Part shown: positions 6,900 through 26,128 of the stretch, in pieces | Layout: each line of letters begins with the position of its first letter | How positions within the stretch are numbered: position 1 is the stretch's first letter | Assembly: GCA_038058745.1 (NCBI GenBank) | Contig: JBBUAI010000013.1 | Coordinates: forward strand, 1 to 26,762 | DNA: 26,762 nucleotides | Direction: 5' to 3' | Source of the DNA: Patescibacteria group bacterium | GTDB taxonomy: Bacteria > Patescibacteriota > Minisyncoccia > Phycocordibacterales > Zambryskibacteraceae | The notes under the pieces: generated by a model | Database searches by the model: none | What the model saw: only the letters and a program-made list of their open reading frames with translations | What the model was told of the DNA's origin: nothing | Made by a program: the position numbers and the translations under genes

Positions 6900-8198
6900 A
6901 TGTCCAAGTTTCAGATAATCCTCCTTTCGACTTTCGGCTTCTTCATCATCCTTGCGGTCGTGGTCTTCGCCTTCTATCGCGGGGGCTCGAGTTCTCTTGA
7001 AGCAACAGTTGCAATCTGGGGCGATATCCACGCGGAAGACTTCAATGTTTTCCTTAACAATACCATCCAGAGCCGCGAGGAGAATCTCACTATCAAATAC
7101 AGAGAACTTTCGTCCGAGAGCATCGACCGCGAATTTACCGAGGCGTTGGCGCGCGGAGAGGGTCCTGACCTTCTCTTAACCACCCAAGACAAGTTATGGA
7201 AGGAGAAATCCAAGCTTCTCCCAATTCCCTACGAAAGCATAAGCGAACGCGATTTCAAACAGACTTTCGTTGAAGAAGGAGAGCTCTTCTTGGGCAAAGA
7301 TGGCATCTACGGCCTGCCTTTATCCATAGACCCGATGGTTCTTTATTATAATCGCGACCTTCTTACCACTGCTGGTCTTGCCCAGCCGATTGGCTATTGG
7401 GACGAAATTTATTCGACTATCTATAAGCTCACCCGCCGCGACGGCGCGGGGAATCTCGTGGAGTCCGCTATCGCCTTAGGCGAGGCGAGGAACATCCCGC
7501 ATGCCAAAGATATCCTCTCGCTTCTCTTATTACAGGCAGGCACGCCCATTACAAGCTTTACGGCTCCGCCAGATGGCGGAGAATTGCGCTCATATCTCTC
7601 GGCAAACTTCAACCTCACCGTTTCTCCCGGAGAATCCGCGCTTGATTTCTACACCCAATTCTCAAATCCTTCGAAGCCGTATTACAGTTGGAACAGGACA
7701 TTGCCTCCCGCCCAAGCCCGCTTCGTCTCGGGCGACTCGGCTTATTACTTGGGCTTCGCGAGCGAATTGAAGACTCTCCGCAATAAAAATCCGAATCTCA
7801 ATTTCAGCGTAACCACTGTGCCCCAGTCGAGAGTGCAGGGTAGGACCTTGACCTTCGGTCGCCTGCGGGCTCTCTCCATTTCGCGCGGCACCAGGTCTCC
7901 GGCCGCCGCTTTGAATGCCGCCTTGTCTCTCGTCGCCAAAGATGAGGCCTCGGTCCTCTCCCAAGTCCTTAATCTTCCGCCAGCCCGCCGCAACCTTCTC
8001 TCGCAGGAGCCTGCGGGCGCGGAGATGCCGGTTTTTTATGAAGCAGCTTTGCAGTCGAAGGGATGGCTTGACCCGGATGACGAGCGCACCCGGGCCATCT
8101 TCGGCGAGATGATAGAACAGGTTACGAGCGGCCGGGCGAGGACGCTCGAGGCCCTAAACCAGGCCGACCGCGCCCTGGAAGACGCTATAAAACAATAG
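6900..8198 (+). CDS. Extracellular solute-binding protein (family 1, MalE-like) with N-terminal TM anchor; no ABC partner genes nearby
   Basis: N-terminal TM (IILLSTFGFFIILAVVVFAF). 'ATVAIWGD...GEGPDLLL...LPLSIDPMVLYYNRDLL' parallels MalE 'KLVIW.NGDKG...GDGPDII...YPIAVEALSLIYNKDLL'. Confidence 0.65.
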   Translation: MSKFQIILLSTFGFFIILAVVVFAFYRGGSSSLEATVAIWGDIHAEDFNVFLNNTIQSREENLTIKYRELSSESIDREFTEALARGEGPDLLLTTQDKLWKEKSKLLPIPYESISERDFKQTFVEEGELFLGKDGIYGLPLSIDPMVLYYNRDLLTTAGLAQPIGYWDEIYSTIYKLTRRDGAGNLVESAIALGEARNIPHAKDILSLLLLQAGTPITSFTAPPDGGELRSYLSANFNLTVSPGESALDFYTQFSNPSKPYYSWNRTLPPAQARFVSGDSAYYLGFASELKTLRNKNPNLNFSVTTVPQSRVQGRTLTFGRLRALSISRGTRSPAAALNAALSLVAKDEASVLSQVLNLPPARRNLLSQEPAGAEMPVFYEAALQSKGWLDPDDERTRAIFGEMIEQVTSGRARTLEALNQADRALEDAIKQ

Positions 8199-8217: not shown

Positions 8218-8523
8218 ATGAAAGATTTAATTGTCTGCGACGGAGTAACGGTGCCATGCACTTTCGAAAAACTTGTTGAACTGGTGGAGGTTATCATTAC
8301 CGACCTGGTCTACCTCTCAACCTTTCTTGCCGTAGCCGCCTTCGCTTACGCTGGCTACATTCTTCTCACCTCCGGAGGCAATACCTCAGCCCGTGACAGA
8401 GCCAAGAGCATATTTCTCAAAGTACTTATCGGCTATGTGTGGATACTCGCGGCCTGGCTTGTGGTTTACACTATAACCAGTGTTTTGCTTAATCCCGGGT
8501 ATTCTCTGCTCGGTGCGCCATGA
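8218..8523 (+). CDS. Small two-TM membrane protein (VirB2/TrbC-like hairpin architecture), array member 1
   Basis: TM1 LVYLSTFLAVAAFAYAGYILL, short polar loop (TSGGNTSARDRAKS), TM2 IFLKVLIGYVWILAAWLVVYTI. 101 aa. Confidence 0.55.
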   Translation: MKDLIVCDGVTVPCTFEKLVELVEVIITDLVYLSTFLAVAAFAYAGYILLTSGGNTSARDRAKSIFLKVLIGYVWILAAWLVVYTITSVLLNPGYSLLGAP

Positions 8524-8527
8524 TAAA

Positions 8528-8881
8528 ATGAAAAAAATAATTCTTACCGCATATTACTTTCTCATCATTTCTTCGGCTTTTGCCCAGGGTGATGTCGAGC
8601 ATAGGATAGAAATCAAAAATCCCTTCGGCCGCGGCATCGACTCGCTCTTCGACCTTTTGAAAACGGTGGTAAACGATATCATCTTGCCTATAGGGGGAGT
8701 GCTCGCGGTGCTTGCTTTCATCTATTCCGGCTTTCTCTATGTGACGGCGCAGGGCAACGATACCAAGCTCAAGACGGCACACAACGCCCTTCTTTATACC
8801 GCCATAGGCACGGCGGTGCTTCTCGGTTCCTGGACTCTGGCCAATGTCATCAGCAATACTATCGATAAACTGAAGACATGA
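8528..8881 (+). CDS. Small secreted/two-TM protein (VirB2/TrbC-like), array member 2
   Basis: Start chosen at MKKIIL (8528), 5 nt after the upstream stop. Sec-type signal peptide (...SSAFAQG) followed by two hydrophobic helices separated by 'TAQGNDTKLKTAHN'. Confidence 0.55.
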   Translation: MKKIILTAYYFLIISSAFAQGDVEHRIEIKNPFGRGIDSLFDLLKTVVNDIILPIGGVLAVLAFIYSGFLYVTAQGNDTKLKTAHNALLYTAIGTAVLLGSWTLANVISNTIDKLKT

Positions 8882-9168
8882 AAGACCCCCGCACATTCGC
8901 CGACATAATAAAGATTTTTACCGGTTTAATCAGTCTTGCCGTTCCCGTCGTGGCTGCCTTGGCGCTTCTCGCCTTTCTTAAAGGTTTGGTCGCTTTTATC
9001 GCCAAGGCGGGAGATGAGAAGAGTCATGCGGAAGGCAAAAATCTCATGGTCTGGGGCCTCGTCGCTCTTTTTGTCATGGTGTCGATTTGGGGAATAGTAC
9101 GCTTCCTATCTGGAGAGGTTGGTTTCGGCCCCACCTTAAAGCTTCCCTTTTTACCCCCAGTCAAGTAA
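8878..9168 (+). CDS. Small two-TM protein, array member 3 (paralog of members 4 to 6)
   Basis: ATGA start/stop overlap with member 2. Conserved block 'ALLAFLKGLVAFIAKAGDEKSHAEGKNLMVWGLVALFVMVSIWGIV'. Confidence 0.6.
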   Translation: MKDPRTFADIIKIFTGLISLAVPVVAALALLAFLKGLVAFIAKAGDEKSHAEGKNLMVWGLVALFVMVSIWGIVRFLSGEVGFGPTLKLPFLPPVK

Positions 9169-9178
9169 TATTAAAATC

Positions 9179-9529
9179 ATGAATAAATTGACCAAAGTCT
9201 GCATTCTCACTCTGGCGGCTATTCCTTCTATGGTGTTCGCGCAAGGGCGGATTATTTTATTGCTTACAGATGTAAAGTACATCATAAGAACTCTTATCAT
9301 CATAGTCGCGGCTATTGCTCTCCTGGTTTTCTTCTGGGGCCTGGTTAGATTTATTTTCAAGGTTGGCGGAAGCGAAGAAGCGGTAAAAGAAGGCAGAACT
9401 CTCATGATATGGGGGTTAATCGCCCTCTTCGTCATGGTTACAGTGTGGGGGTTAATAAGCTTTATAGAAAGGGAAATATTCGGCACTCTTGATAAGAGTG
9501 ACCCTAATATTCCAAGCTTTAGACCTTAG
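9179..9529 (+). CDS. Small two-TM protein with signal peptide, array member 4
   Basis: Signal peptide ending AQG, then 'ALLVFFWGLVRFIFKVGGSEEAVKEGRTLMIWGLIALFVMVTVWGLISFI', clearly paralogous to members 3, 5 and 6. Confidence 0.6.
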   Translation: MNKLTKVCILTLAAIPSMVFAQGRIILLLTDVKYIIRTLIIIVAAIALLVFFWGLVRFIFKVGGSEEAVKEGRTLMIWGLIALFVMVTVWGLISFIEREIFGTLDKSDPNIPSFRP

Positions 9530-9533
9530 AATA

Positions 9534-9877
9534 GTAGGGGATAACCCCCACACCTATTTTTCTATTGTCGCAAATCATATAATACGTCTATGTATTATGT
9601 ATTATGTGTATATTCTAAAAAGTAAAAAAGATAACAATTTGTATTATGGTTCCACAAATGATTTGCGACGCAGGCTAGTAGAGCACAATACTGGTAAAAA
9701 TCGCTCTACCAAAGCTAGAAAACCATTTGAGCTGCGCTATTACGAAGCTTACTATAACGAAAATGATGCCAGAGGTAGAGAGTATTCTTTAAAGAAGGAC
9801 GGTAGAGCTTTAGCGCAGCTCAGGCGGAGGTTAGAAAATAGCCTGCTATAGAGAAATAGGTGTGGGGGATAACCCGG
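9534..9877. mobile_element. AT-rich ~340-bp cassette: GIY-YIG nuclease gene bounded by ~22-bp imperfect terminal inverted repeats, inserted within the two-TM gene array
   Basis: Left end GGGGATAACCCCCACACCTATTT (9537..9559). Right end AAATAGGTGTGGGGGATAACCCGG (9854..9877). The inner 15 nt (CCCCCACACCTATTT) are identical in inverted orientation. Each end also contains a GGGG-ATAA-CCCC mini-hairpin. Cassette GC is about 33% versus about 48% in the flanking genes. Confidence 0.45.
9597..9851 (+). CDS. GIY-YIG nuclease superfamily protein (YhbQ/UPF0213-like), 85 aa
   Basis: 'YYVYILKSKKDNNLYYGSTNDLRRRLVEHN...GKNRSTKARKPFELRYYEAY..ENDARGREYSLKK' carries the GIY...YIG, catalytic Arg and Glu/Asn motifs. 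Start placed at the in-frame ATG at 9597, where the domain begins. Confidence 0.8.
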   Translation: MYYVYILKSKKDNNLYYGSTNDLRRRLVEHNTGKNRSTKARKPFELRYYEAYYNENDARGREYSLKKDGRALAQLRRRLENSLL

Positions 9878-9965
9878 TTGTCTTTATAGTCCCTTGACGT
9901 ATCATAGATATATACCATCAGGTATTAAAATTAGTAGTAAATAGTAGATAGTAAATAGTAAATAA

Positions 9966-10310
9966 ATGAAAAAAGTTATTCTTGCCGCTCTGGCCCTGGC
10001 CCCCTCACTCGCTTTCGCACAGAATCTAGGCAACCTTAATAATCTCATAACCTCCGTTGGCAATCTTGTTGAGCTTGCCTTGCCTATTGTGGTAGCAATT
10101 GCGCTCCTCGCCTTCTTCTGGGGTTTGGTCAAATTCATCTTCTCTGCTTCCGGTGAAGAGGCGCATAAGGAAGGCCAGCGCCTGATGATCTGGGGCCTCG
10201 TTGCCCTCTTCGTCATGGTTTCCGTCTGGGGACTTGTAAAGTTTATCGGCACCGCCCTCGGCGTCCAGCAGGGAGATACCATCATTGTCCCAAGAGTTCC
10301 GGGCATATAG
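9966..10310 (+). CDS. Small two-TM protein with signal peptide, array member 5
   Basis: 'MKKVILAALALAPSLAFAQ' signal peptide, then 'ALLAFFWGLVKFIFSASGEEAHKEGQRLMIWGLVALFVMVSVWGLVKFI'. A tandem AT-rich repeat (gtaaatagtaRat x2, 9937..9963) precedes it. Confidence 0.6.
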   Translation: MKKVILAALALAPSLAFAQNLGNLNNLITSVGNLVELALPIVVAIALLAFFWGLVKFIFSASGEEAHKEGQRLMIWGLVALFVMVSVWGLVKFIGTALGVQQGDTIIVPRVPGI

Positions 10311-10364
10311 TTTCGACTCCGCTGGTTCAATATCCTCACCATAAATCACTACAAGTAGTCTCTA

Positions 10365-10631
10365 ATGCCGATAGAATCGTTCCTGAACAAAATCAATCAG
10401 TTCATCCTTAACCCTATAATCGGGCTTGCGTTTGCCGTCGCCCTCCTCGTCTTCTTCTGGGGAATCTTCCAGTTCATCAATTCGGAGACGACTGATGCCA
10501 AGCGCGATGAGGGGAAGAGAAAGATTTTCTACGGACTTCTCGGCATGTTCATCATGATTTCCGCCTTCGGCCTTATCCGCTTGATTTTGAACACCTTCGG
10601 CATCACTCCGCCTTCTTACCCCGGATTCTGA
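10365..10631 (+). CDS. Small two-TM protein, array member 6 (no signal peptide)
   Basis: 'IIGLAFAVALLVFFWGIFQFI...DEGKRKIFYGLLGMFIMISAFGLIRLIL' is paralogous to members 3 to 5. Confidence 0.55.
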   Translation: MPIESFLNKINQFILNPIIGLAFAVALLVFFWGIFQFINSETTDAKRDEGKRKIFYGLLGMFIMISAFGLIRLILNTFGITPPSYPGF

Positions 10632-11361
10632 TTAAATGCCCCAAAGGGGCCACTTTGTGAAAAGAGCCGCCCGCGACCGTAAGGTCGGGGGCGGCTTTGA
10701 TTACCGGCACTGTATCGGGTGGTACTGGTGGCAGGTCCGGAGCGGGTTTCTTCAACTCCGGCGCGGGTGGCACCACCTTATCCGGGTGTGGTGTGCCGAT
10801 GGGCCAGAAGCGCAGGATGACGGCGACAACTGGCACTTCTTCGTCTGTGACGCGGAAGCGCACCTTCTCGACACTCTCCCTTATTGGCACGCGATTCTTG
10901 AGTTCGCGCGGGAACAAGACCGGTTTGGGCAAACTCGGTGTTTCCATCTCGTACGCTACGAGCTCCGTCCTGTCGAATGCCAGATGATAGCCCAGTGGCA
11001 CGTCAACCCACTCTGACCATTCCAGGTCGATGAGGATGGTGTGGACGACCACCCTGTTCGGTGTGGCACGTCCTCCGCCGGAAACGGAGTAATCTCTCCA
11101 TTGCCGGTAGGAACTCCCGACGACAAGTAAGAGTAGAGCGATCACTAGGACCGTTCCGATAGGGAAGCTTCCCTGACGTCCGCCGGCCTTGAAAAAATAG
11201 ACCAGGCTCGCTAGGACGACGAGAAGGAGAAGAACCCAGAGAATCGGCCTCCACGAGGTGCCGGTGAAAAGGCCAGAAAAATACCTGACCACCACCATCG
11301 CGAGTACTAGGCAGATGAGAGCCCAAACCATGACTTGAAACTTCGTGAGCAAAGCACGCAT
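10603..11361 (-). CDS. Membrane protein: three N-terminal TM helices, a beta-rich middle domain and a Pro-rich C-terminal tail; possibly NfeD-like
   Basis: TM segments MVWALICLVLAMVVV, ILWVLLLLVVLASLVYFF and IGTVLVIALLLLVVGSS. Tail 'PPAPELKKPAPDLPPVPPDTVP'. GGAGGAG SD 4 nt before the ATG, with a TGaTATAAT extended -10 at 11394..11402 (minus strand). Confidence 0.6.
   Translation of the reverse strand: MRALLTKFQVMVWALICLVLAMVVVRYFSGLFTGTSWRPILWVLLLLVVLASLVYFFKAGGRQGSFPIGTVLVIALLLLVVGSSYRQWRDYSVSGGGRATPNRVVVHTILIDLEWSEWVDVPLGYHLAFDRTELVAYEMETPSLPKPVLFPRELKNRVPIRESVEKVRFRVTDEEVPVVAVILRFWPIGTPHPDKVVPPAPELKKPAPDLPPVPPDTVPVIKAAPDLTVAGGSFHKVAPLGHLIRIRGKKAE
10666..10702 (+). terminator. Rho-independent terminator ending the two-TM array (GNRA tetraloop hairpin plus T-run)
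   Basis: GCCGCCCGCGACC-GTAA-GGTCGGGGGCGGC (13-bp stem, 1 mismatch) followed by TTTGATT. It lies inside the 3' end of the convergent minus-strand ORF 10603..11361. A smaller hairpin gcccc-aaa-ggggc sits at 10639..10651. Confidence 0.55.
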
Positions 11362-11458: not shown

Positions 11459-12490
11459 TCACTTGCCCAATGGTATCGCCGTACTTGCTCCGGGAGCGAA
11501 GGTGGTCATCGTCTTGTTGTTCTCGTAGGCGTCGGCCCACCTTACCAAGGCCATTTCAGGACTCGCCGCTGCTGGTTTGATTACCCGCGCGATGCGGTCA
11601 GCGTCAGCGTCGTTCTTGAGTATCTGCTTCTGCTTCTCCCTCTCGGCATCGATGAGCTGCGCTTCCTTTGTTTTTTCGGCTGTCACCTTCAGTTCGAGGA
11701 GCGCGCGATACTTGGGGTCCATGGTGACATCGCGGATGCTCACTTTCTCTATATCGAAACCTATCTCTCTTTCAATCACCTCCCGTAAGACCACATCATT
11801 CTCGATGCGCTCTGCCATCGTCTTGCGGTTCGCTTCCGCGTGAGGGCCGCCGATGTAAGCTTCTGCCGTCTGGGAGGTCGTCATGTTATTGACGATGTTT
11901 TCGACAAGACTGGTGAGAAAGGCCGATGCATCGGCCAGTTTCAGGACCGACCGGACCGGAAATTTTCTCGCAAAAACGAAATCAATTTCGAAGTTGAGGC
12001 CAATCAGGTCGAAAGTGTCGGCTTCCTTGACCTTGACCGTCAGGTCGCCGGTGTAGAAAACGTTCCTGGTTTGGTACGCCTTGGCGACCGTGCGAAGCTC
12101 CTCTTTCTGGCCCTCTTGCGCGAATCGCAGATGCCGGTCGACGTTGACTCGCGGCTTCCAGAAAGGATTGCCCATTGACTGGATGCCGAGAGTTCTGAAC
12201 AGGAAAGCCGAGTGTCTCGGGTCTTCGCCTATTTTCTCGAAATGCCAATTCATGGGGTCTGGGTCATTGTCCTTGACCAAAGTTTGACCGCTCACTCCAT
12301 GGAGGACATCCACCACGGTGCCGCTGCCCTTCATGCCGTCGCCGGACTCGTCTTCATGGGTCACGATGAGAGCGAAGGTGTTGGCCGGGGTAAATATCCA
12401 CAGCTTGTCTCTCTTGGCCAGTTCCCGGACGATGACAGCCGGGGCGACGAAGAATAAGACTGCGAGAAGGATGGTAATCAGAATCTCCAT
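11459..12490 (-). CDS. SPFH/band-7 (stomatin/prohibitin/flotillin-like) domain membrane protein
   Basis: N-terminal TM, then SPFH-like 'FEIDFVFARKFPVRSVLKLADASAFLTSLVENIVNNMTTSQTAEAYIG' and a coiled-coil 'AEKTKEAQLIDAEREKQKQILKNDADADRIARV' typical of band-7 proteins. Confidence 0.7.
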   Translation of the reverse strand: MEILITILLAVLFFVAPAVIVRELAKRDKLWIFTPANTFALIVTHEDESGDGMKGSGTVVDVLHGVSGQTLVKDNDPDPMNWHFEKIGEDPRHSAFLFRTLGIQSMGNPFWKPRVNVDRHLRFAQEGQKEELRTVAKAYQTRNVFYTGDLTVKVKEADTFDLIGLNFEIDFVFARKFPVRSVLKLADASAFLTSLVENIVNNMTTSQTAEAYIGGPHAEANRKTMAERIENDVVLREVIEREIGFDIEKVSIRDVTMDPKYRALLELKVTAEKTKEAQLIDAEREKQKQILKNDADADRIARVIKPAAASPEMALVRWADAYENNKTMTTFAPGASTAIPLGK

Positions 12491-16662: not shown

Positions 16663-17886
16663 ATGAGACAGAGCCAACTCTTTACTAAAACTCGCCGGGA
16701 GGCGCCAGCGGATGAAGTCTCCAAGAACGCCATTCTCCTCACCCGCGCCGGATTCATACACAAAGAAATGGCGGGCGTTTATTCATATCTGCCTTTGGGA
16801 TTGAAAGTGCTTAAAAAGATAGAAAGTGTTATTCGCGAAGAAATGGACAAGCTTGGTGCGCAGGAAATTGAGTTGGCGACATTTCAAAACAAGGAATTGT
16901 GGGAAAAGACAAATCGTTGGGACGATAAAATTATTGACGTTTGGTACAAATTGCGTGATGAAGATATTGGATTAGGATTTACACATGAGGAACCATTGAC
17001 TGCTATCGCAAAGGAATACGTGCAATCATACCGAGACCTACCCTTCTCCGCTTATCAATTCCAGACAAAATTCAGAAGAGAATTAAGGACTAAATCAGGT
17101 ATTATGCGTGGCCGAGAGTTTCTAATGAAAGATCTCTATTCTTTCTGTGAAAATTATGATCAGCATCGTGATTTTTATAAAAAAGCACAGGACTCATATA
17201 AACGGATTTTTGATAGAGTAGGAATAGGTCATTTAACGTATCTAACCTATGCGTCTGGCGGTAGTTTTTCAGATGTCTCTCATGAATTCCAAACAATTAC
17301 TGCTTCTGGTGAAGATATAATATTTATACGCGAAGAAAATGATTATGCAGTTAATAAAGAAATATTTAATGATGAGTGGAAGGCGAAACTTAATATGAAC
17401 AAGTTTAGGGAGGAGAAATCAATTGAGGTGGGAAATATATTTAATCTAGGCACAAAATTTTCAGAAGCTCTAGGTTTGAAATATAAAGAGATTGACGGAA
17501 GTGAAAGGCCGGTATGGATGGGCTCATATGGTATTGGTTTGGGAAGACTCATGGGCACTGTAGTCGAAGTGCTTTCAGATGAGAAGGGAATTGTCTGGCC
17601 GAAAGAGGTAGCGCCGTTTCAAGTTCATTTAATTTCTCTCAATCAGAATGAGCTCTCGGATGAGGTTTATAAAACCCTTAGAGCCAATAAAATAGACGTT
17701 CTTTATGATGACCGCGATGTTCGCGCCGGGGAAAAGTTCGCAGACGCAGACTTAATTGGTATCCCGCTCCGCGTCGTGATTGGGGAAAAGTCTCTTGAAT
17801 CAAAAATGCTTGAGGTCAAAAATAGGAATGCCGATGAGGTACGACAGGTTACTCTCGAATATTTGCTCGAGGAGTTAAAAAGTTAA
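16663..17886 (+). CDS. proS: Prolyl-tRNA synthetase, bacterial-like N-terminus but lacking an editing (INS) domain (407 aa)
   Basis: 'MRQSQLFTKTRREAPADE...LLTRAGFI......Y..LPLGLKVLKKIE.VIREEM' parallels E. coli ProS. Class II motif 2 'FRRELRTKSGIMRGREFLMKDLYSF' and motif 3 'GSYGIGLGRLMG' are present. Confidence 0.9.
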   Translation: MRQSQLFTKTRREAPADEVSKNAILLTRAGFIHKEMAGVYSYLPLGLKVLKKIESVIREEMDKLGAQEIELATFQNKELWEKTNRWDDKIIDVWYKLRDEDIGLGFTHEEPLTAIAKEYVQSYRDLPFSAYQFQTKFRRELRTKSGIMRGREFLMKDLYSFCENYDQHRDFYKKAQDSYKRIFDRVGIGHLTYLTYASGGSFSDVSHEFQTITASGEDIIFIREENDYAVNKEIFNDEWKAKLNMNKFREEKSIEVGNIFNLGTKFSEALGLKYKEIDGSERPVWMGSYGIGLGRLMGTVVEVLSDEKGIVWPKEVAPFQVHLISLNQNELSDEVYKTLRANKIDVLYDDRDVRAGEKFADADLIGIPLRVVIGEKSLESKMLEVKNRNADEVRQVTLEYLLEELKS

Positions 17887-22187: not shown

Positions 22188-23750
22188 TTGGAGCACCAAA
22201 AAAATAGATTTGATTTTTCGAAAGTGAAAGACAAAACTTCCTGGGCCTCACAGGCGGCGGATGAAATTATTGCCGCGCATCCTGGCGAAGGAGCATATGT
22301 GACGGCCGCTGGCATCAGTCCTTCGGGAGTGGTGCACTTTGGCAATTTCCGCGACGTGGCAACTGCTCACCTGGTACGGGAAGAACTGGTCAGAAAAGGC
22401 AAAAAATCCAAACTCATCTTCTCCTGGGACAATTTTGACCGTTTCCGAAAAATTCCGGCCGGTGTGCCGGAATCCTTCTCCGAGTATATCGGCAAGCCGC
22501 TTTCCAAAATTCCCGACCCTATGGGTAAACTTTCTTCATACGCGGAGCATTTCCAAAAGCTGTTTGTCGAAGCGATGCGAAAACTTAACATCGAAATCGA
22601 GTATCGTGACCAGACGACTTTGTATGAAAGCGGTATTTATGATGAAGCGATTTTTGAAGCGCTTAAGAAGAGGAAGGAAATCGCGGATATTCTACTCTCC
22701 TTCATGTCGGAGAAAGCAAAGGGGGAGAAGGGTATTAATCCCGCCGAATACCAGGAAAACTATTATCCTATTTCCGTCTACTCCCGCTTTACAGGCAAAG
22801 ATACCACGAAGGTTCTTAGATTCGACGGTAATACCAGTATCACTTATCTCTGTGTCGAAACGGGCAAGGAAGAGCCCATAGACCTTTCAAAAGAACATAT
22901 CGCCAAGCTTGCCTGGAAAGTGGATTGGCCCATGAGGTGGCGGCACGAGAGGGTGGTTTTCGAGCCAGGCGGACACGACCACGCTTCCCCGGGGTCGAGC
23001 TTCGACATCGGTACGGAGATTGCGCCGAAAATATTCGATTACAATCCACCGCTTTTCGTCGAGTATAAATTTGTGGGCATCCAGGGCCTCGGCGCTAAGA
23101 TGTCCGGTTCAAAGGGTAATGCCATCTCTCCCTTAGAGCTCATGGAAGTCTATGAGCCGGAGGTGTTGAAGTGGCTTTACTTCAGGAAGTCGCCCGACCA
23201 ATCATTCGAACTCGCTTTCAATACGGAAATTTATCGCCAATATGATGAATACGACGCAGAACATTTGGAACTTAATTCCATCCCATTCCGCCAGGTAGTC
23301 GGCTTCGGACAGGTTGTGCAATGGCAGGAGAATAAATTAAAAACCATTCTTGATGCGCTCAATTTAAAATACAGTACAAAAAGTATTTCCAGCCGACTAC
23401 CGCTCGCGAAAAATTGGCTCGAGAAATACAATCCATACGAAGTAATAAAATTAAACAATACTCCAAACTCCTCTTACGCGTTTTCCATGAATGATGTGGG
23501 GAGAAGACAAATCAATCGGTTGCGGGAAGAATTGGAGAAAAATAAAAATGCTTCAGTCCAGGAGCTGGATATCCTGGTCTACGATATTCCAAAATTGCCA
23601 GGGTTGAACGAAGAAGAATTAAAGAAAGCTCAAAGAGCGTTCTTTAAAGACGTTTACAATCTTTTAATAAACAGGGATGCTGGTCCTCGCCTCGGCACTT
23701 TCCTCTGGGCTGCGGATAGGGGACAAGTTTTGAAGCTATTGACTTTTTAA
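22188..23750 (+). CDS. lysK: Class I lysyl-tRNA synthetase (LysK type)
   Basis: TTG start adjacent to the greA stop. HIGH-like 'GISPSGVVHFGNFRDV' and KMSKS-like 'KMSGSKGNAISP' match class I LysRS rather than class II LysS. Confidence 0.8.
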   Translation: MEHQKNRFDFSKVKDKTSWASQAADEIIAAHPGEGAYVTAAGISPSGVVHFGNFRDVATAHLVREELVRKGKKSKLIFSWDNFDRFRKIPAGVPESFSEYIGKPLSKIPDPMGKLSSYAEHFQKLFVEAMRKLNIEIEYRDQTTLYESGIYDEAIFEALKKRKEIADILLSFMSEKAKGEKGINPAEYQENYYPISVYSRFTGKDTTKVLRFDGNTSITYLCVETGKEEPIDLSKEHIAKLAWKVDWPMRWRHERVVFEPGGHDHASPGSSFDIGTEIAPKIFDYNPPLFVEYKFVGIQGLGAKMSGSKGNAISPLELMEVYEPEVLKWLYFRKSPDQSFELAFNTEIYRQYDEYDAEHLELNSIPFRQVVGFGQVVQWQENKLKTILDALNLKYSTKSISSRLPLAKNWLEKYNPYEVIKLNNTPNSSYAFSMNDVGRRQINRLREELEKNKNASVQELDILVYDIPKLPGLNEEELKKAQRAFFKDVYNLLINRDAGPRLGTFLWAADRGQVLKLLTF

Positions 23751-24901: not shown

Positions 24902-26128
24902 TTATTTTCTCTCTTTTATCTCGTCTTTAAGTTTGATAATCAAATCGTCGGGAGACATTTGGCCCAAGTTTCCGGCATCTCGGCTTTCGACAGAGACTTT
25001 CTTATCAGCCACTTCCTTGTCTCCGATGACGAGGGCGTAGGGAACTTTCTCTATTTTGAAATTACGGATCTTCTTGCTTAGAGTTTCGTTTGACACATCC
25101 ATCTCCACTCTCATATTAGCTGCTTTAAGCTTATCCATTACTTCGGTGGCGTAGAGGAAGTGAGTTTCGCCAATAGGCAAGATTTTCACTTGTACTGGAG
25201 CGAGCCAGAGAGGGAAGGCGCCAGCGTATTTCTCGATTAAAAAGGCCATGAATCTTTCTATCGTTCCAACCGAAGAACGGTGAATAACGAATGCACGATG
25301 TTTCTTGCCATCTTCACCAATGTAAGAGAGATCGAACCTGTCAGGCATACAGAAATCGTACTGGACAGTAAATGCCGTATCTTCTTTGCCATTCACGTTT
25401 TTTATCTGAATGTCAATCTTCGGTCCATAGAAAGCCGCCTCACCCTTAGCTTCCTCGAATTCACCTACACGCTTCTTTAGAAGTTGTCGCAGAAGCTGCT
25501 CACTTTTCTCCCAAGCTTTATCATTTTTGTAATATTTCTCAGTGTTACTCCTATCGCCCATAGATAATCTGTAACGATAATCTCTGCCAAGCTCAAGCCC
25601 AAAGACGCTAGCCACATACTCTATAAGATCCAAGGCCTTACTGGCTTCTTCTACAGCCTGCTCCTCAGATGCGCAGATGATATGAGCATCAGAAAGGCAC
25701 ATAGCTCTAGTTCTCTGAAGGCCCATAAGCTCTCCTGATTGCTCGTAGCGATAGAGTTTTGCCCATTCAGCAATACGCATCGGAAGGTCTTTATAGCTTC
25801 TGGGTCTACTTAAATACATCTCAAAATGATGCGGGCAAGTCATTGGACGAAGTATAAATTCCTCATCATCTATAACAATAGGAGCATACATACTGTCCTG
25901 GTAATGAGGATAGTGACCAGATTTCTTATATAAATCTAACTTTGCGATATCGGGAGTGTAGACATGCATATAACCGCGTAACGTTTCTTCCTCAACAATA
26001 AATTTCTCGATCTCGCGCCTGATGATCGAACCTTTAGGCAGCCAGAGGGGGAGCCCTTTACCCACGGTATCCGAGAAGGTAAAAAGCTCCAGCTCTTTAC
26101 CTAACTTCTTATGGTCCCTTTCTTCCAT
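24902..26128 (-). CDS. thrS: Threonyl-tRNA synthetase, catalytic core plus anticodon-binding domain only (no TGS or editing N-domains)
   Basis: 'RDHKKLGKELELF', 'PMTCPHH', 'TRAMCLSDAHIIC', 'FYGPKIDIQI', 'QYDFCMPDRF' and 'HRSSVGTIERFMAFLIEKYAGAFPLWLAPVQVKILPI' match the ThrRS class II core and anticodon-binding domain. 408 aa. Confidence 0.9.
   Translation of the reverse strand: MEERDHKKLGKELELFTFSDTVGKGLPLWLPKGSIIRREIEKFIVEEETLRGYMHVYTPDIAKLDLYKKSGHYPHYQDSMYAPIVIDDEEFILRPMTCPHHFEMYLSRPRSYKDLPMRIAEWAKLYRYEQSGELMGLQRTRAMCLSDAHIICASEEQAVEEASKALDLIEYVASVFGLELGRDYRYRLSMGDRSNTEKYYKNDKAWEKSEQLLRQLLKKRVGEFEEAKGEAAFYGPKIDIQIKNVNGKEDTAFTVQYDFCMPDRFDLSYIGEDGKKHRAFVIHRSSVGTIERFMAFLIEKYAGAFPLWLAPVQVKILPIGETHFLYATEVMDKLKAANMRVEMDVSNETLSKKIRNFKIEKVPYALVIGDKEVADKKVSVESRDAGNLGQMSPDDLIIKLKDEIKERK

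What the first reader, a model, noticed from the sequence alone, without database searches (positions are those of the whole stretch)
8218..10631. Tandem array of six paralogous small two-TM proteins (VirB2/TrbC-like hairpins), three with Sec signal peptides, ended by a single strong terminator and preceded by an orphan solute-binding protein
- Members 3 to 6 share a conserved block: ALLxFFWGLVxFI-(G/S-x-E-charged loop)-LMIWGLVALFVMVSVWGLVxFI.
- Members 1 and 2 keep the helix-loop-helix architecture with diverged sequence.
- Signal peptide plus two hydrophobic helices separated by a short charged loop is the architecture of conjugative/T4SS pilins (VirB2/TrbC). It is not that of type IV prepilins, because there is no G/FxxxE leader.
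- No VirB4, VirB6 or VirD4 genes are in the window. The array is therefore either a surface-filament or pilin repertoire served by machinery elsewhere, or a family of small membrane proteins of unknown role.
- Gene-to-gene couplings (ATGA overlaps, 5 to 10 nt gaps), absence of SDs, and one terminator at 10666..10702 suggest a single operon that begins with the TM-anchored MalE-like protein (6900..8198).
Basis: partly seen in the sequence, partly recalled or inferred. Interest (0 to 1): 0.55.

Follow-up and report, generated by a model that had tools for sequence, protein, structure and literature searches.

The report
VirB2-like pilin gene array, Patescibacteria
This is a row of six related genes for small membrane proteins of the 'type IV secretion pilin' family in an ultrasmall (Patescibacteria) bacterium; such arrays are already described and are essential in a cultured relative, but how they work is still unknown.

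Summary
Six paralogous small hairpin proteins lie on the + strand at 8218-10631, and all six pass Pfam's cut-off for PF18895 (T4SS_pilin). Member 2 also passes PF04956 (TrbC/VirB2). Three members carry A-x-A|Q signal peptides. A MalE-like, membrane-anchored solute-binding protein (SBP) lies 19 nt upstream, and a strong hairpin follows the last gene.

- A GIY-YIG nuclease cassette interrupts the array between members 4 and 5.
- Members 5-6 have their own conserved promoter region, so a single operon is doubtful.

The window comes from a Zambryskibacteria-like Patescibacteria genome assembled from a metagenome (a MAG). VirB2-like pilin arrays in this phylum are published (Wang 2023; Quinonero-Coronel 2025). 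Southlakia has six tandem PF18895 genes, each essential.

New here:
- In 62 of 69 related Paceibacteria loci the array (4-8 genes, mode 6) sits directly behind the same SBP gene. No T4SS machinery lies within 10 kb of the array in any of the 80 loci.
- Gene order m1-m2-...-m5-m6 is conserved. That favours a fixed heteromeric set over a variable repertoire.

I could not test whether this MAG has VirB4. Verdict: a new member of a known kind, of moderate interest.

The parts
6900..8198 (+). Membrane-anchored MalE-like solute-binding protein (432 aa), first gene of the conserved SBP-pilin module
   Evidence: Hits PF13416 and PF01547. The AF2 model is poor (pLDDT 58), but all top Foldseek PDB hits are oligosaccharide SBPs at E about 1e-10. 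It lies directly upstream of the array, same strand, in 62 of 69 related loci, with a median gap of 2.5 nt. Orthologues are 60-88% identical.
8218..8523 (+). m1, T4SS_pilin-family hairpin protein without signal peptide (101 aa)
   Evidence: PF18895 29.1 bits against 26.6. Two hydrophobic segments. It takes the first position in related arrays.
8528..8881 (+). m2, the most TrbC/VirB2-like member, with signal peptide ...SSAFA|QGD (117 aa)
   Evidence: PF18895 33.5 bits and PF04956 28.1 against 27.9. The second position is conserved. The L061 orthologue hits PF04956 at 30.0.
8878..9168 (+). m3, core-type pilin-like protein without signal peptide (96 aa); its start overlaps the m2 stop (ATGA)
   Evidence: PF18895 29.9 bits. 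It is 49-51% identical to m4 and m5.
9179..9529 (+). m4, core-type pilin-like protein with signal peptide ...SMVFA|QGR (116 aa)
   Evidence: PF18895 29.8 bits. It is 57% identical to m5.
9534..9875 (+). GIY-YIG nuclease cassette inserted in the m4-m5 spacer: ORF 9597-9851, 28-nt inverted repeats at 9538-9565 and 9848-9875, and direct repeats GTAGGGGATAACCC (9534-9547) and GTGGGGGATAACCC (9862-9875)
   Evidence: PF01541, E = 6e-18. Repeats. GC falls to 0.41 here. Relatives have only a 100-120-nt spacer at this point, including the closest one, L003.
9866..9925 (+). Conserved regulatory region upstream of m5: GGGGATAAC (reverse complement GTTATCCCC, resembling a DnaA box) at 9866-9874, promoter-like TTGTCT-16-TATCAT at 9878-9905, and palindrome ATACC-ATCA-GGTAT at 9912-9925
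   Evidence: Promoter scan. Alignment with five relatives shows invariant columns. The motif [AT]ATCC[AC]C occurs in 58 of 80 upstream regions against 8.3% of background windows. ATCCACA is the most enriched 7-mer, 30 of 80 against 1.9 expected.
9966..10310 (+). m5, core-type pilin-like protein with signal peptide MKKVILAALALAPSLAFA|QN (114 aa); one of the two best-conserved members (with m6) and the candidate major subunit
   Evidence: PF18895 37.3 bits. There are 989 homologues at E <= 0.001 among the scored candidates; those listed are 64-86% identical and mostly 112-116 aa long. AF2 gives helices 2-16, 21-59 and 64-97 at pLDDT 72.
10365..10631 (+). m6, last member, without signal peptide (88 aa)
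   Evidence: PF18895 30.8 bits and PF04956 20.2. It takes the last position in related arrays with up to 90% identity. Only 1 of 73 m6-class proteins has a signal-peptide-like N-terminus.
10666..10704 (+). GC-rich hairpin (10666-10695) plus TTTGATTAC tail: terminator-like end of the array
   Evidence: dG -28.3 kcal/mol. The 96-nt context has z = -4.7. The equivalent element is present in 61 of 77 related loci against 11% of random windows.

Best explanation
The six genes encode the Paceibacteria version of the Patescibacteria VirB2-like pilin set. These are small inner-membrane helix-loop-helix proteins of Pfam family PF18895.

**Membrane insertion.** Three members (m2, m4, m5) are made with Sec signal peptides cut at A-x-A|Q. 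That places the mature N-terminus outside, the charged loop in the cytoplasm and the C-terminus outside, which is the topology of VirB2/TraA propilins. The three members without a leader (m1, m3, m6) would insert as hairpins in the same orientation.

**Assembly (inferred).** From this membrane pool, a VirB4-type, monoderm-like T4SS encoded elsewhere in the genome would extract the subunits. It would assemble them into a short surface filament or envelope-spanning conduit used in contact with a host cell.

**Fixed set, not a repertoire.** Each array position keeps its identity across the class. In Southlakia each of the six homologues is individually essential. The set is therefore best read as non-redundant parts of one heteromeric structure, with m5-type as the abundant subunit and the others as minor or specialised subunits. 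It is not a repertoire of interchangeable antigenic variants.

**Transcription.** There are probably two units: SBP-m1-m2-m3-m4 (tightly coupled), and m5-m6 from its own regulated promoter. Both end at the hairpin after m6.

**Shown versus inferred.**
- Shown: family membership, architecture, synteny, positional orthology, and the conserved promoter and terminator motifs.
- Inferred: filament formation, dependence on a T4SS, heteromeric assembly, and any role of the SBP.
For: - **Pfam.** All six members are above the PF18895 cut-off, and m2 is above the PF04956 TrbC/VirB2 cut-off. The same holds in distant arrays.
- **NCBIfam.** Five of six give sub-threshold hits to NF045849, 'Mbov_0395 family pilin-like conjugal transfer protein' of Mycoplasma ICEs, which are monoderm MPF-FATA elements.
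- **Cleavage site.** The A-x-A|Q context is shared with Agrobacterium-type VirB2.
- **Fold.** AF2 predicts a signal helix plus a two-helix hairpin.
- **Genomic association elsewhere.** PF18895 genes sit next to VirB4, TrsD, VirB3 and VirB6 in other Patescibacteria. In Woesebacteria there are 6-8 in a row, and in Paceibacteria one copy lies beside VirB4 (Table S3 of PMC12102498).
- **Southlakia.** SEML1_0014-0019 are six tandem PF18895 genes beside the T4SS genes, all scored essential by Tn-seq (PMC10633639 supplement; PMC12857230).
- **VirB4 in the lineage.** 22 of 25 Zambryskibacteria drafts listed in one part of Table S1 have VirB4. So does the Vogelbacteria genome that carries locus L050.
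- **Positional orthology.** Order m1-m2-m3-(m4/m5)-m5-m6 recurs across 80 loci.
- **Array size.** Where the SBP is present, array sizes are 6 (31 loci), 5 (16), 4 (8) and 7 (7).
- **Expression.** T4SS_pilin proteins are among the five most highly expressed signal-peptide genes of unknown function in two Paceibacteria MAGs, including the adjacent pair PMX.50_00607/00608 (PMC10936435).
Against: - No VirB4, VirB6 or VirD4 lies within 10 kb of the array in any of 80 related loci, nor within positions 1-42274 of this 55-kb contig.
- I could not test whether VirB4 is present in this MAG.
- Profile-profile comparison with an eight-sequence VirB2 alignment was not significant.
- Sequence search of the PDB found nothing.
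- Foldseek returned only generic helical hairpins, with best E = 0.7 and no solved T4SS pilus subunit among the 50 listed hits.
- In Paceibacteria a separate PF18895 gene sits beside VirB4, so the T4SS may not need this array.
- No pilus built of these proteins has been seen in any Patescibacterium, according to the papers read.
- The loop charge is roughly neutral in m3-m5, so topology for the members without a leader rests on homology alone.
Confidence: 0.55

Rival explanations
1. The array is a T4SS-independent membrane module that works with the upstream solute-binding protein. The six hairpin proteins would form a small hetero-oligomeric membrane complex (a channel, scaffold or envelope anchor) that partners the MalE-like SBP in capturing host-derived sugars or nucleotides. 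Their resemblance to VirB2 would reflect only distant common ancestry.
For: - The SBP is directly upstream on the same strand in 62 of 69 loci, at coupling distances (median gap 2.5 nt).
- T4SS genes are never adjacent.
- Paceibacteria carry another PF18895 gene right beside VirB4.
- hhalign and fold search do not tie the proteins to solved pilins.
- SBP fold hits are oligosaccharide binders and also include a dinucleotide-binding SBP.
Against: - S1, the metallo-beta-lactamase-fold gene (MBL) and gyrA are equally syntenic upstream, so adjacency may reflect general synteny rather than function.
- No ABC permease or ATPase is nearby.
- Two-TM hairpins are not known to serve as SBP-dependent importers.
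- The homologous six-gene array in Saccharimonadia sits in the T4SS cluster.
Confidence: 0.2
2. The six genes are a variation repertoire. They would be interchangeable alternative major pilins that diversify the surface to fit different host strains or to evade host defences, as proposed for the VirB2 paralogues of Bartonella and Anaplasma.
For: - Quinonero-Coronel et al. suggest this for Patescibacteria arrays, which average 25% identity between members.
- m1 and m2 are only 19-27% identical to the other members.
- Array size varies from 4 to 8, with local duplications of the m5 type.
Against: - Positions are orthologous across the class, and individual members are conserved: up to 87% identity for m5 and 90% for m6 between species.
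- Signal-peptide status is position-specific: 113 of 158 m5-class proteins have one, against 1 of 73 m6-class proteins.
- All six Southlakia genes are individually essential, so they are not redundant.
Confidence: 0.12
3. The proteins are unrelated small hydrophobic proteins, such as holin-like, bacteriocin/immunity or ATP-synthase-c-like hairpins. They would match pilin profiles only through transmembrane composition.
For: - Pfam scores are only 2-11 bits above the cut-off.
- Helical hairpins match many folds.
- One Southlakia homologue has an ECOD hit to F1Fo subunit c.
Against: - All six members hit the same family, and no other Pfam family reaches its own cut-off for any of them.
- TM2 has no conserved carboxylate of the c-subunit kind (sequence).
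- There is no phage, lysis or bacteriocin context; the neighbours are housekeeping genes.
- The family is linked to VirB4 clusters in other classes.
Confidence: 0.05

Closest known systems
Essential pilin array of Ca. Southlakia epibionticum ML1 (SEML1_0014-0019; Wang et al. 2023, PMC10633639)
   Same: - Six tandem genes on one strand, all PF18895, some also PF04956.
- Small size (about 100-185 aa).
- Members are sequence-divergent but share a predicted helical hairpin.
- The host is a Patescibacterium with a monoderm-type T4SS.
   Different: - The Southlakia array lies inside the T4SS gene cluster, next to the VirB6-like, PrgI/VirB3-like and VirB4-like genes. Here the array follows gyrA and an SBP gene, with no T4SS gene for tens of kb.
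- Essentiality is shown there and untested here.
- I could not test one-to-one orthology between the two sets.
VirB2-like pilin arrays of Patescibacteria surveyed by Quinonero-Coronel et al. 2025 (PMC12102498)
   Same: [quoted passage not shown]
- Low identity between members.
- Chromosomal, with no relaxase nearby.
   Different: - That survey centres on the virB4 neighbourhood and finds arrays mostly in Microgenomatia and Saccharimonadia.
- For the Paceibacteria visible in its Table S3, only a single VirB4-proximal VirB2 is listed.
- The gyrA/SBP context is not mentioned in its main text.
- Its suggested role is host-range versatility. The positional orthology found here points instead to a fixed set.
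VirB2 / TrbC / TraA conjugative pilins of diderm T4SSs (Pfam PF04956)
   Same: - Cleavable leader ending A-x-A|Q.
- Two hydrophobic helices joined by a short polar loop.
- Mature size under 100 aa.
- m2 passes the family cut-off.
   Different: - Diderm systems usually have one major pilin gene, located inside the virB/trb/tra operon.
- Here there are six paralogues in a monoderm, three without leaders and distant from the ATPase.
- Cyclisation or acetylation, and pilus formation, are unknown.
- Profile-profile and fold comparisons were not significant.
Mbov_0395 / MMCAP2_0565 pilin-like conjugal transfer proteins of Mycoplasma ICEs (NCBIfam NF045849)
   Same: Small two-helix membrane proteins linked to a monoderm (MPF-FATA) conjugation system. 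Five of six members give E-values of 2e-7 to 2e-3.
   Different: - All scores (18-31 bits) are below the family cut-off of 40.
- Those proteins are encoded singly on mobile elements, not as chromosomal arrays.

Membership tests
Pfam PF18895 T4SS_pilin | Whole-protein score at or above the curated gathering score (26.6 bits) | tested here: met
   m1 29.1, m2 33.5, m3 29.9, m4 29.8, m5 37.3, m6 30.8 bits.
Pfam PF04956 TrbC/VirB2 pilin | Whole-protein score at or above the gathering score (27.9 bits) | tested here: inconclusive
   m2 scores 28.1, just above the cut-off. m6 scores 20.2, below it, and the other four have no hit. The m2-position orthologue in L061 scores 30.0. hhalign against eight VirB2 sequences gave probabilities of 5% and 1.7%.
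VirB2/TrbC-type conjugative pilins | Cleavable N-terminal leader followed by two hydrophobic helices separated by a short loop | tested here: met
   m2, m4 and m5 have leaders ending AFA|Q followed by two hydrophobic segments. VirB2 has the same A-x-A|Q context. m1, m3 and m6 have the hairpin but no leader. No dedicated signal-peptide predictor was available.
VirB2/TrbC-type conjugative pilins | Encoded with, and dependent on, a VirB4-containing T4SS | tested here: not met
   This applies to co-location only. No VirB4, VirB6 or VirD4 occurs in the window, in contig positions 1-42274 or in 80 related loci. Presence elsewhere in this genome and functional dependence could not be tested. Most relatives do have VirB4.
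VirB2/TrbC-type conjugative pilins | Polymerises into an extracellular pilus with bound phospholipid | not testable with these tools
   This needs cryo-EM or cryo-ET, or a multimer prediction. The monomer fold search was uninformative.
Patescibacteria VirB2-like pilin array (Wang 2023; Quinonero-Coronel 2025) | Two or more PF18895/PF04956 genes in tandem, or separated by one non-pilin gene, on a Patescibacteria chromosome | tested here: met
   Six such genes are present, with one intervening GIY-YIG gene. The source is a Patescibacteria MAG, and its relatives are Zambryskibacteria.
Type IV (T4P) prepilins / Flp pilins | Class III leader with G|F/MxxxE (or G|XXXXEY for Flp) cut by a prepilin peptidase | tested here: not met
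   No such motif appears in any of the six sequences, and no T4P or Flp Pfam family was hit.
ABC-transporter solute-binding protein, family 1 (upstream gene) | SBP_bac_1/SBP_bac_8 domain and bilobed fold, normally encoded beside permease and ATPase genes | tested here: inconclusive
   The domain is met: PF13416 45.5 bits and PF01547 41.6 bits, and Foldseek top hits are MalE-like SBPs at E about 1e-10, although the model has pLDDT 58. No permease or ATPase is adjacent here or in the related loci.

The most novel reading that the evidence does not exclude
In Paceibacteria the multi-pilin set has been detached from the T4SS cluster and fused into an operon with a sugar- or nucleotide-type solute-binding protein. 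Together they would form a dedicated uptake device: a heteromeric VirB2-like conduit reaching the host surface, with the SBP capturing what comes through. Expression of the main subunit (m5-m6) would be tied to replication status through a DnaA-box-like element at its promoter. That would give the long-sought route by which these auxotrophic ultrasmall bacteria extract building blocks from their hosts.
Probability: 0.1. Interest if true: 0.8.

Novelty: new member of a known kind. Interest (0 to 1): 0.38.

Why it matters
**The open question.** Patescibacteria make up a large share of bacterial diversity and live off other microbes, yet how they take what they need is unknown. Their unusual T4SS and its VirB2-like pilin array are essential in the one species tested, and the function of both is described in the literature as completely unknown (PMC11665869).

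**What this locus adds.**
- It shows the Paceibacteria form of that array.
- It adds three testable points: a fixed, positionally conserved set of about six paralogues; constant operon-like coupling to a MalE-like binding protein instead of to the secretion ATPase; and a conserved, separately regulated promoter for the best-conserved members.

**Limits.** These are refinements of a known system, not a new one. By themselves they do not reveal the mechanism.

Tried and rejected
1. **PDB sequence search** with the m5-family profile found nothing relevant; the best hit was E = 0.21 to a viral glycoprotein.
2. **AF2 plus Foldseek on m5** returned only generic helical hairpins (chemoreceptors, pore-forming toxins). 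No solved T4SS pilus subunit was among the 50 listed hits, and the best E was 0.7. A two-helix hairpin is too simple for fold search to discriminate.
3. **hhalign** of the family against eight genuine VirB2/TrbC sequences fetched from plasmids was not significant. Both alignments are shallow (Neff 2-3), so this is inconclusive rather than negative.
4. **Search for T4SS genes** downstream of arrays in distant loci and among all ORFs of 450 aa or more in 80 loci. Only housekeeping genes turned up (RbfA, IF-2, ClpB, DnaG, RpoD, AddA-like helicase, PrkA, aaRS).
5. **Rest of the source contig.** I reached positions 1-42274 of 55348 and found no T4SS gene. I could not obtain a Paceibacteria VirB4 sequence to query for this MAG's own copy.
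6. **Copies of the GIY-YIG cassette ends** in other loci: none. GIY-YIG homologues in L017 and L081 lie several kb from the arrays.
7. **DnaA-box enrichment in the window as a sign of an origin:** none, 5 matches against 4.2 expected.
8. **Rfam and tRNA scans** of the window were empty.
9. **SBP structure.** The model was poor (pLDDT 58) because the alignment was shallow.

Full report
**1. What is there**

The + strand between 8218 and 10631 carries six small ORFs: m1 8218-8523, m2 8528-8881, m3 8878-9168, m4 9179-9529, m5 9966-10310 and m6 10365-10631. The GenBank gene calls for the source contig agree. Each protein has two long hydrophobic segments separated by a short charged loop.

m2, m4 and m5 also start with a basic n-region, a hydrophobic h-region and AFA|Q. 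In m5 orthologues M1, K2, K3, P13, A18 and Q19 are nearly invariant. Identities are 49-57% among m3, m4 and m5, and 30-38% between m6 and those three. m1 and m2 are only 19-27% identical to anything else.

**2. Family**

All six exceed the curated cut-off of Pfam PF18895 'T4SS_pilin' (29.1-37.3 bits against 26.6). m2 also just exceeds PF04956 'TrbC/VirB2 pilin' (28.1 against 27.9), and m6 reaches 20.2. Five of six give sub-threshold hits to NCBIfam NF045849, a pilin-like conjugal transfer protein of Mycoplasma ICEs.

Genuine VirB2 proteins fetched from plasmids share the A-x-A|Q leader end. Three other tests did not help:
- Profile-profile comparison against those eight VirB2 sequences was not significant (probabilities 5% and 1.7%).
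- The PDB sequence search was empty.
- The AF2 model of m5 (pLDDT 72; helices 2-16, 21-59, 64-97) matched only generic helical hairpins.

So membership of PF18895 is met. Kinship to classical VirB2 rests on one marginal Pfam score, the shared architecture, and genomic association in other lineages.

**3. Source and surroundings**

The window is part of contig CAYIXK010000002.1 (55 kb) of a Patescibacteria MAG, and m5 and the SBP have close homologues annotated as Candidatus Zambryskibacteria. The rest of the window is housekeeping: signal peptidase, Pth, S1, GyrA, RRF, RseP, MreB/C, PBP2, GreA, class I LysRS and others. Contig positions 1-42274 contain no VirB4, VirB6 or VirD4.

**4.

- *The array is interrupted.* A GIY-YIG nuclease ORF (9597-9851; PF01541, E = 6e-18) with 28-nt inverted repeats (9538-9565 and 9848-9875) and flanking direct repeats G(T/G)(A/G)GGGGATAACCC lies in the m4-m5 gap. 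Relatives, including the closest one (L003, 87% identical m5), have only a 100-120-nt spacer there. So it is a recent insertion.
- *m5 has its own promoter region.* In relatives the spacer is a conserved regulatory region. It holds a promoter-like TTGnnn-16-TAT(C/T)AT, a palindrome ATACCGTnTAGGTAT just downstream, and upstream a motif resembling the DnaA box. That motif reads GTTATCCCC on the opposite strand in Zambryskibacteria-like loci and (T/A)ATCCACA(G) in more distant Paceibacteria. [AT]ATCC[AC]C occurs in 58 of 80 upstream regions against 8.3% of background windows. ATCCACA is the most enriched 7-mer (30 of 80 against 1.9 expected). m5-m6 therefore probably has its own regulated promoter, and the 'single operon' idea is doubtful. 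SBP-m1-m2-m3-m4 are tightly coupled, with gaps of 19, 4, -4 and 10 nt.
- *The terminator is real and conserved.* The hairpin is at 10666-10695 (dG -28 kcal/mol, tail TTTGATTAC). It is conserved in kind: 61 of 77 related loci against 11% of random windows. However, it lies within the last 100 nt of a convergent, lineage-specific ORF (10603-11361).

**5. Comparative genomics**

A scan of one genome per species with m5 returned 80 loci from Zambryski-, Adler-, Nomura-, Campbell-, Vogel- and Lloydbacteria and unnamed Paceibacterota. With an HMM of the six window proteins, nearly every locus shows a tandem array.

- In 62 of 69 loci with enough upstream DNA, the SBP orthologue lies directly upstream on the same strand, with a median gap of 2.5 nt. 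Array sizes are 6 (31 loci), 5 (16), 4 (8) and 7 (7).
- Further upstream, the metallo-beta-lactamase-fold gene (MBL) and gyrA are also conserved.
- Downstream genes vary: LOG/FKBP/HolB/RRF in close relatives, and Band7, RbfA, IF-2 or ClpB in others.
- No T4SS ATPase or channel gene occurs in any locus.
- Best-hit assignment shows a collinear order, with m1 first, m2 second, m3/m4/m5-type in the middle and m6 last.
- Signal-peptide status is position-specific: 113 of 158 m5-class proteins have a leader, and 84 of these have Q at +1. Only 1 of 73 m6-class proteins has one.

**6. What is already known**

- Quinonero-Coronel et al. 2025 searched 3,035 Patescibacteria genomes with PF18895 and PF04956. 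[quoted passage not shown] The arrays are most abundant in Microgenomatia and Saccharimonadia, and the authors suggest host-range versatility.
- Their Table S3 shows 6-8 PF18895 genes a few genes from VirB4 in Woesebacteria. For the Paceibacteria visible to me it lists only one PF18895 gene, beside VirB4. Their main text does not mention gyrA or a binding protein.
- Wang et al. 2023 found six tandem PF18895 genes (SEML1_0014-0019) beside the T4SS genes of Southlakia, each essential by Tn-seq. A 2025 review calls them six structurally conserved, sequence-divergent VirB2-like pilins and speculates about a conduit for uptake from the host.
- Kuroda et al. 2024 found T4SS_pilin proteins among the most highly expressed signal-peptide genes in Paceibacteria.
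- 22 of 25 Zambryskibacteria drafts listed in one part of Table S1 have VirB4. So does the Vogelbacteria genome carrying locus L050.

**7. Interpretation**

The array is the Paceibacteria counterpart of a known Patescibacteria feature. The most likely mechanism is a membrane pool of VirB2-like subunits assembled by a T4SS encoded elsewhere into a filament or conduit at the host interface.

Conserved positions, position-specific leaders and the individual essentiality in Southlakia argue for a fixed heteromeric set rather than interchangeable variants. The main rival is a T4SS-independent complex working with the SBP. The constant SBP coupling and the absence of nearby T4SS genes favour that rival. 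The equally conserved but clearly unrelated gyrA, and the T4SS-embedded arrays of other classes, weaken it.

**8. The SBP**

It is a distant MalE-type binding protein (Pfam; weak PDB sequence hits; Foldseek E about 1e-10 on a poor model). It has an N-terminal membrane anchor, is well conserved (60-88% identity) and has no adjacent permease. Its role with the pilins is open.

**9. Verdict**

- Observation: confirmed.
- Interpretation: supported.
- Novelty: a new member of a known kind, with some undescribed context (SBP coupling, positional orthology, the m5 promoter motif).
- Interest: moderate.

Noticed in passing
window 9534-9875: A compact GIY-YIG nuclease cassette is inserted exactly at the conserved GGGGATAAC motif of the m4-m5 spacer. 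It consists of an 84-aa ORF at 9597-9851, 28-nt terminal inverted repeats, and 14-nt direct repeats that look like a target-site duplication. It is absent from the closest relative and has low GC (0.41), so it looks like a recently mobile element with a preferred target.
   Followed up: partly
window 9866-9925; upstream of the m5 orthologue in L003-L082: A regulatory region upstream of the m5-type pilin gene is conserved across Paceibacteria. It holds a motif resembling the DnaA box, TTATCC(A/C)C(A), present in 58 of 80 loci against 8% of background windows. It also holds a promoter-like -35/-10 pair and, in Zambryskibacteria-like loci, the palindrome ATACCGTnTAGGTAT over the likely start site. 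This may tie pilin expression to DnaA or to another regulator.
   Followed up: partly
window 10603-11361 (-) and 11459-12490 (-): A lineage-specific 252-aa ORF with three N-terminal TM helices lies downstream of an SPFH/Band7 gene. This resembles an SPFH-NfeD-type pair, and many relatives have a small membrane ORF plus Band7 in the same place. The ORF overlaps the m6 stop by 29 nt and contains the terminator hairpin in its 3' end, so its annotated C-terminus may be wrong.
   Followed up: no
window 16663-17886 (+) and 24902-26128 (-): Two mutually homologous class II aminoacyl-tRNA-synthetase-like genes (tRNA-synt_2b plus HGTP_anticodon, about 407 aa each) lie in the window. A third gene with an HGTP_anticodon domain lies just upstream of the window. 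Both window copies sit in stretches of lower GC (0.40-0.43, against about 0.50 for much of the window).
   Followed up: no
window 22188-23750 (+): The lysyl-tRNA synthetase is of class I (PF01921), the archaeal-type enzyme, not the usual bacterial class II.
   Followed up: no
L061 19558-20330; L037 11442-12147; L039 7992-8669: Some Paceibacteria carry further PF18895 genes a few kb beyond the main array. One is a 257-aa protein with the pilin domain at residues 74-138, so the family also occurs as longer fusion proteins.
   Followed up: no
L052 and L081 (about 9960-10340): In two loci a single m5-like pilin gene stands alone upstream of dnaG-rpoD-addA-like genes, instead of in an SBP-linked array.
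   Followed up: no
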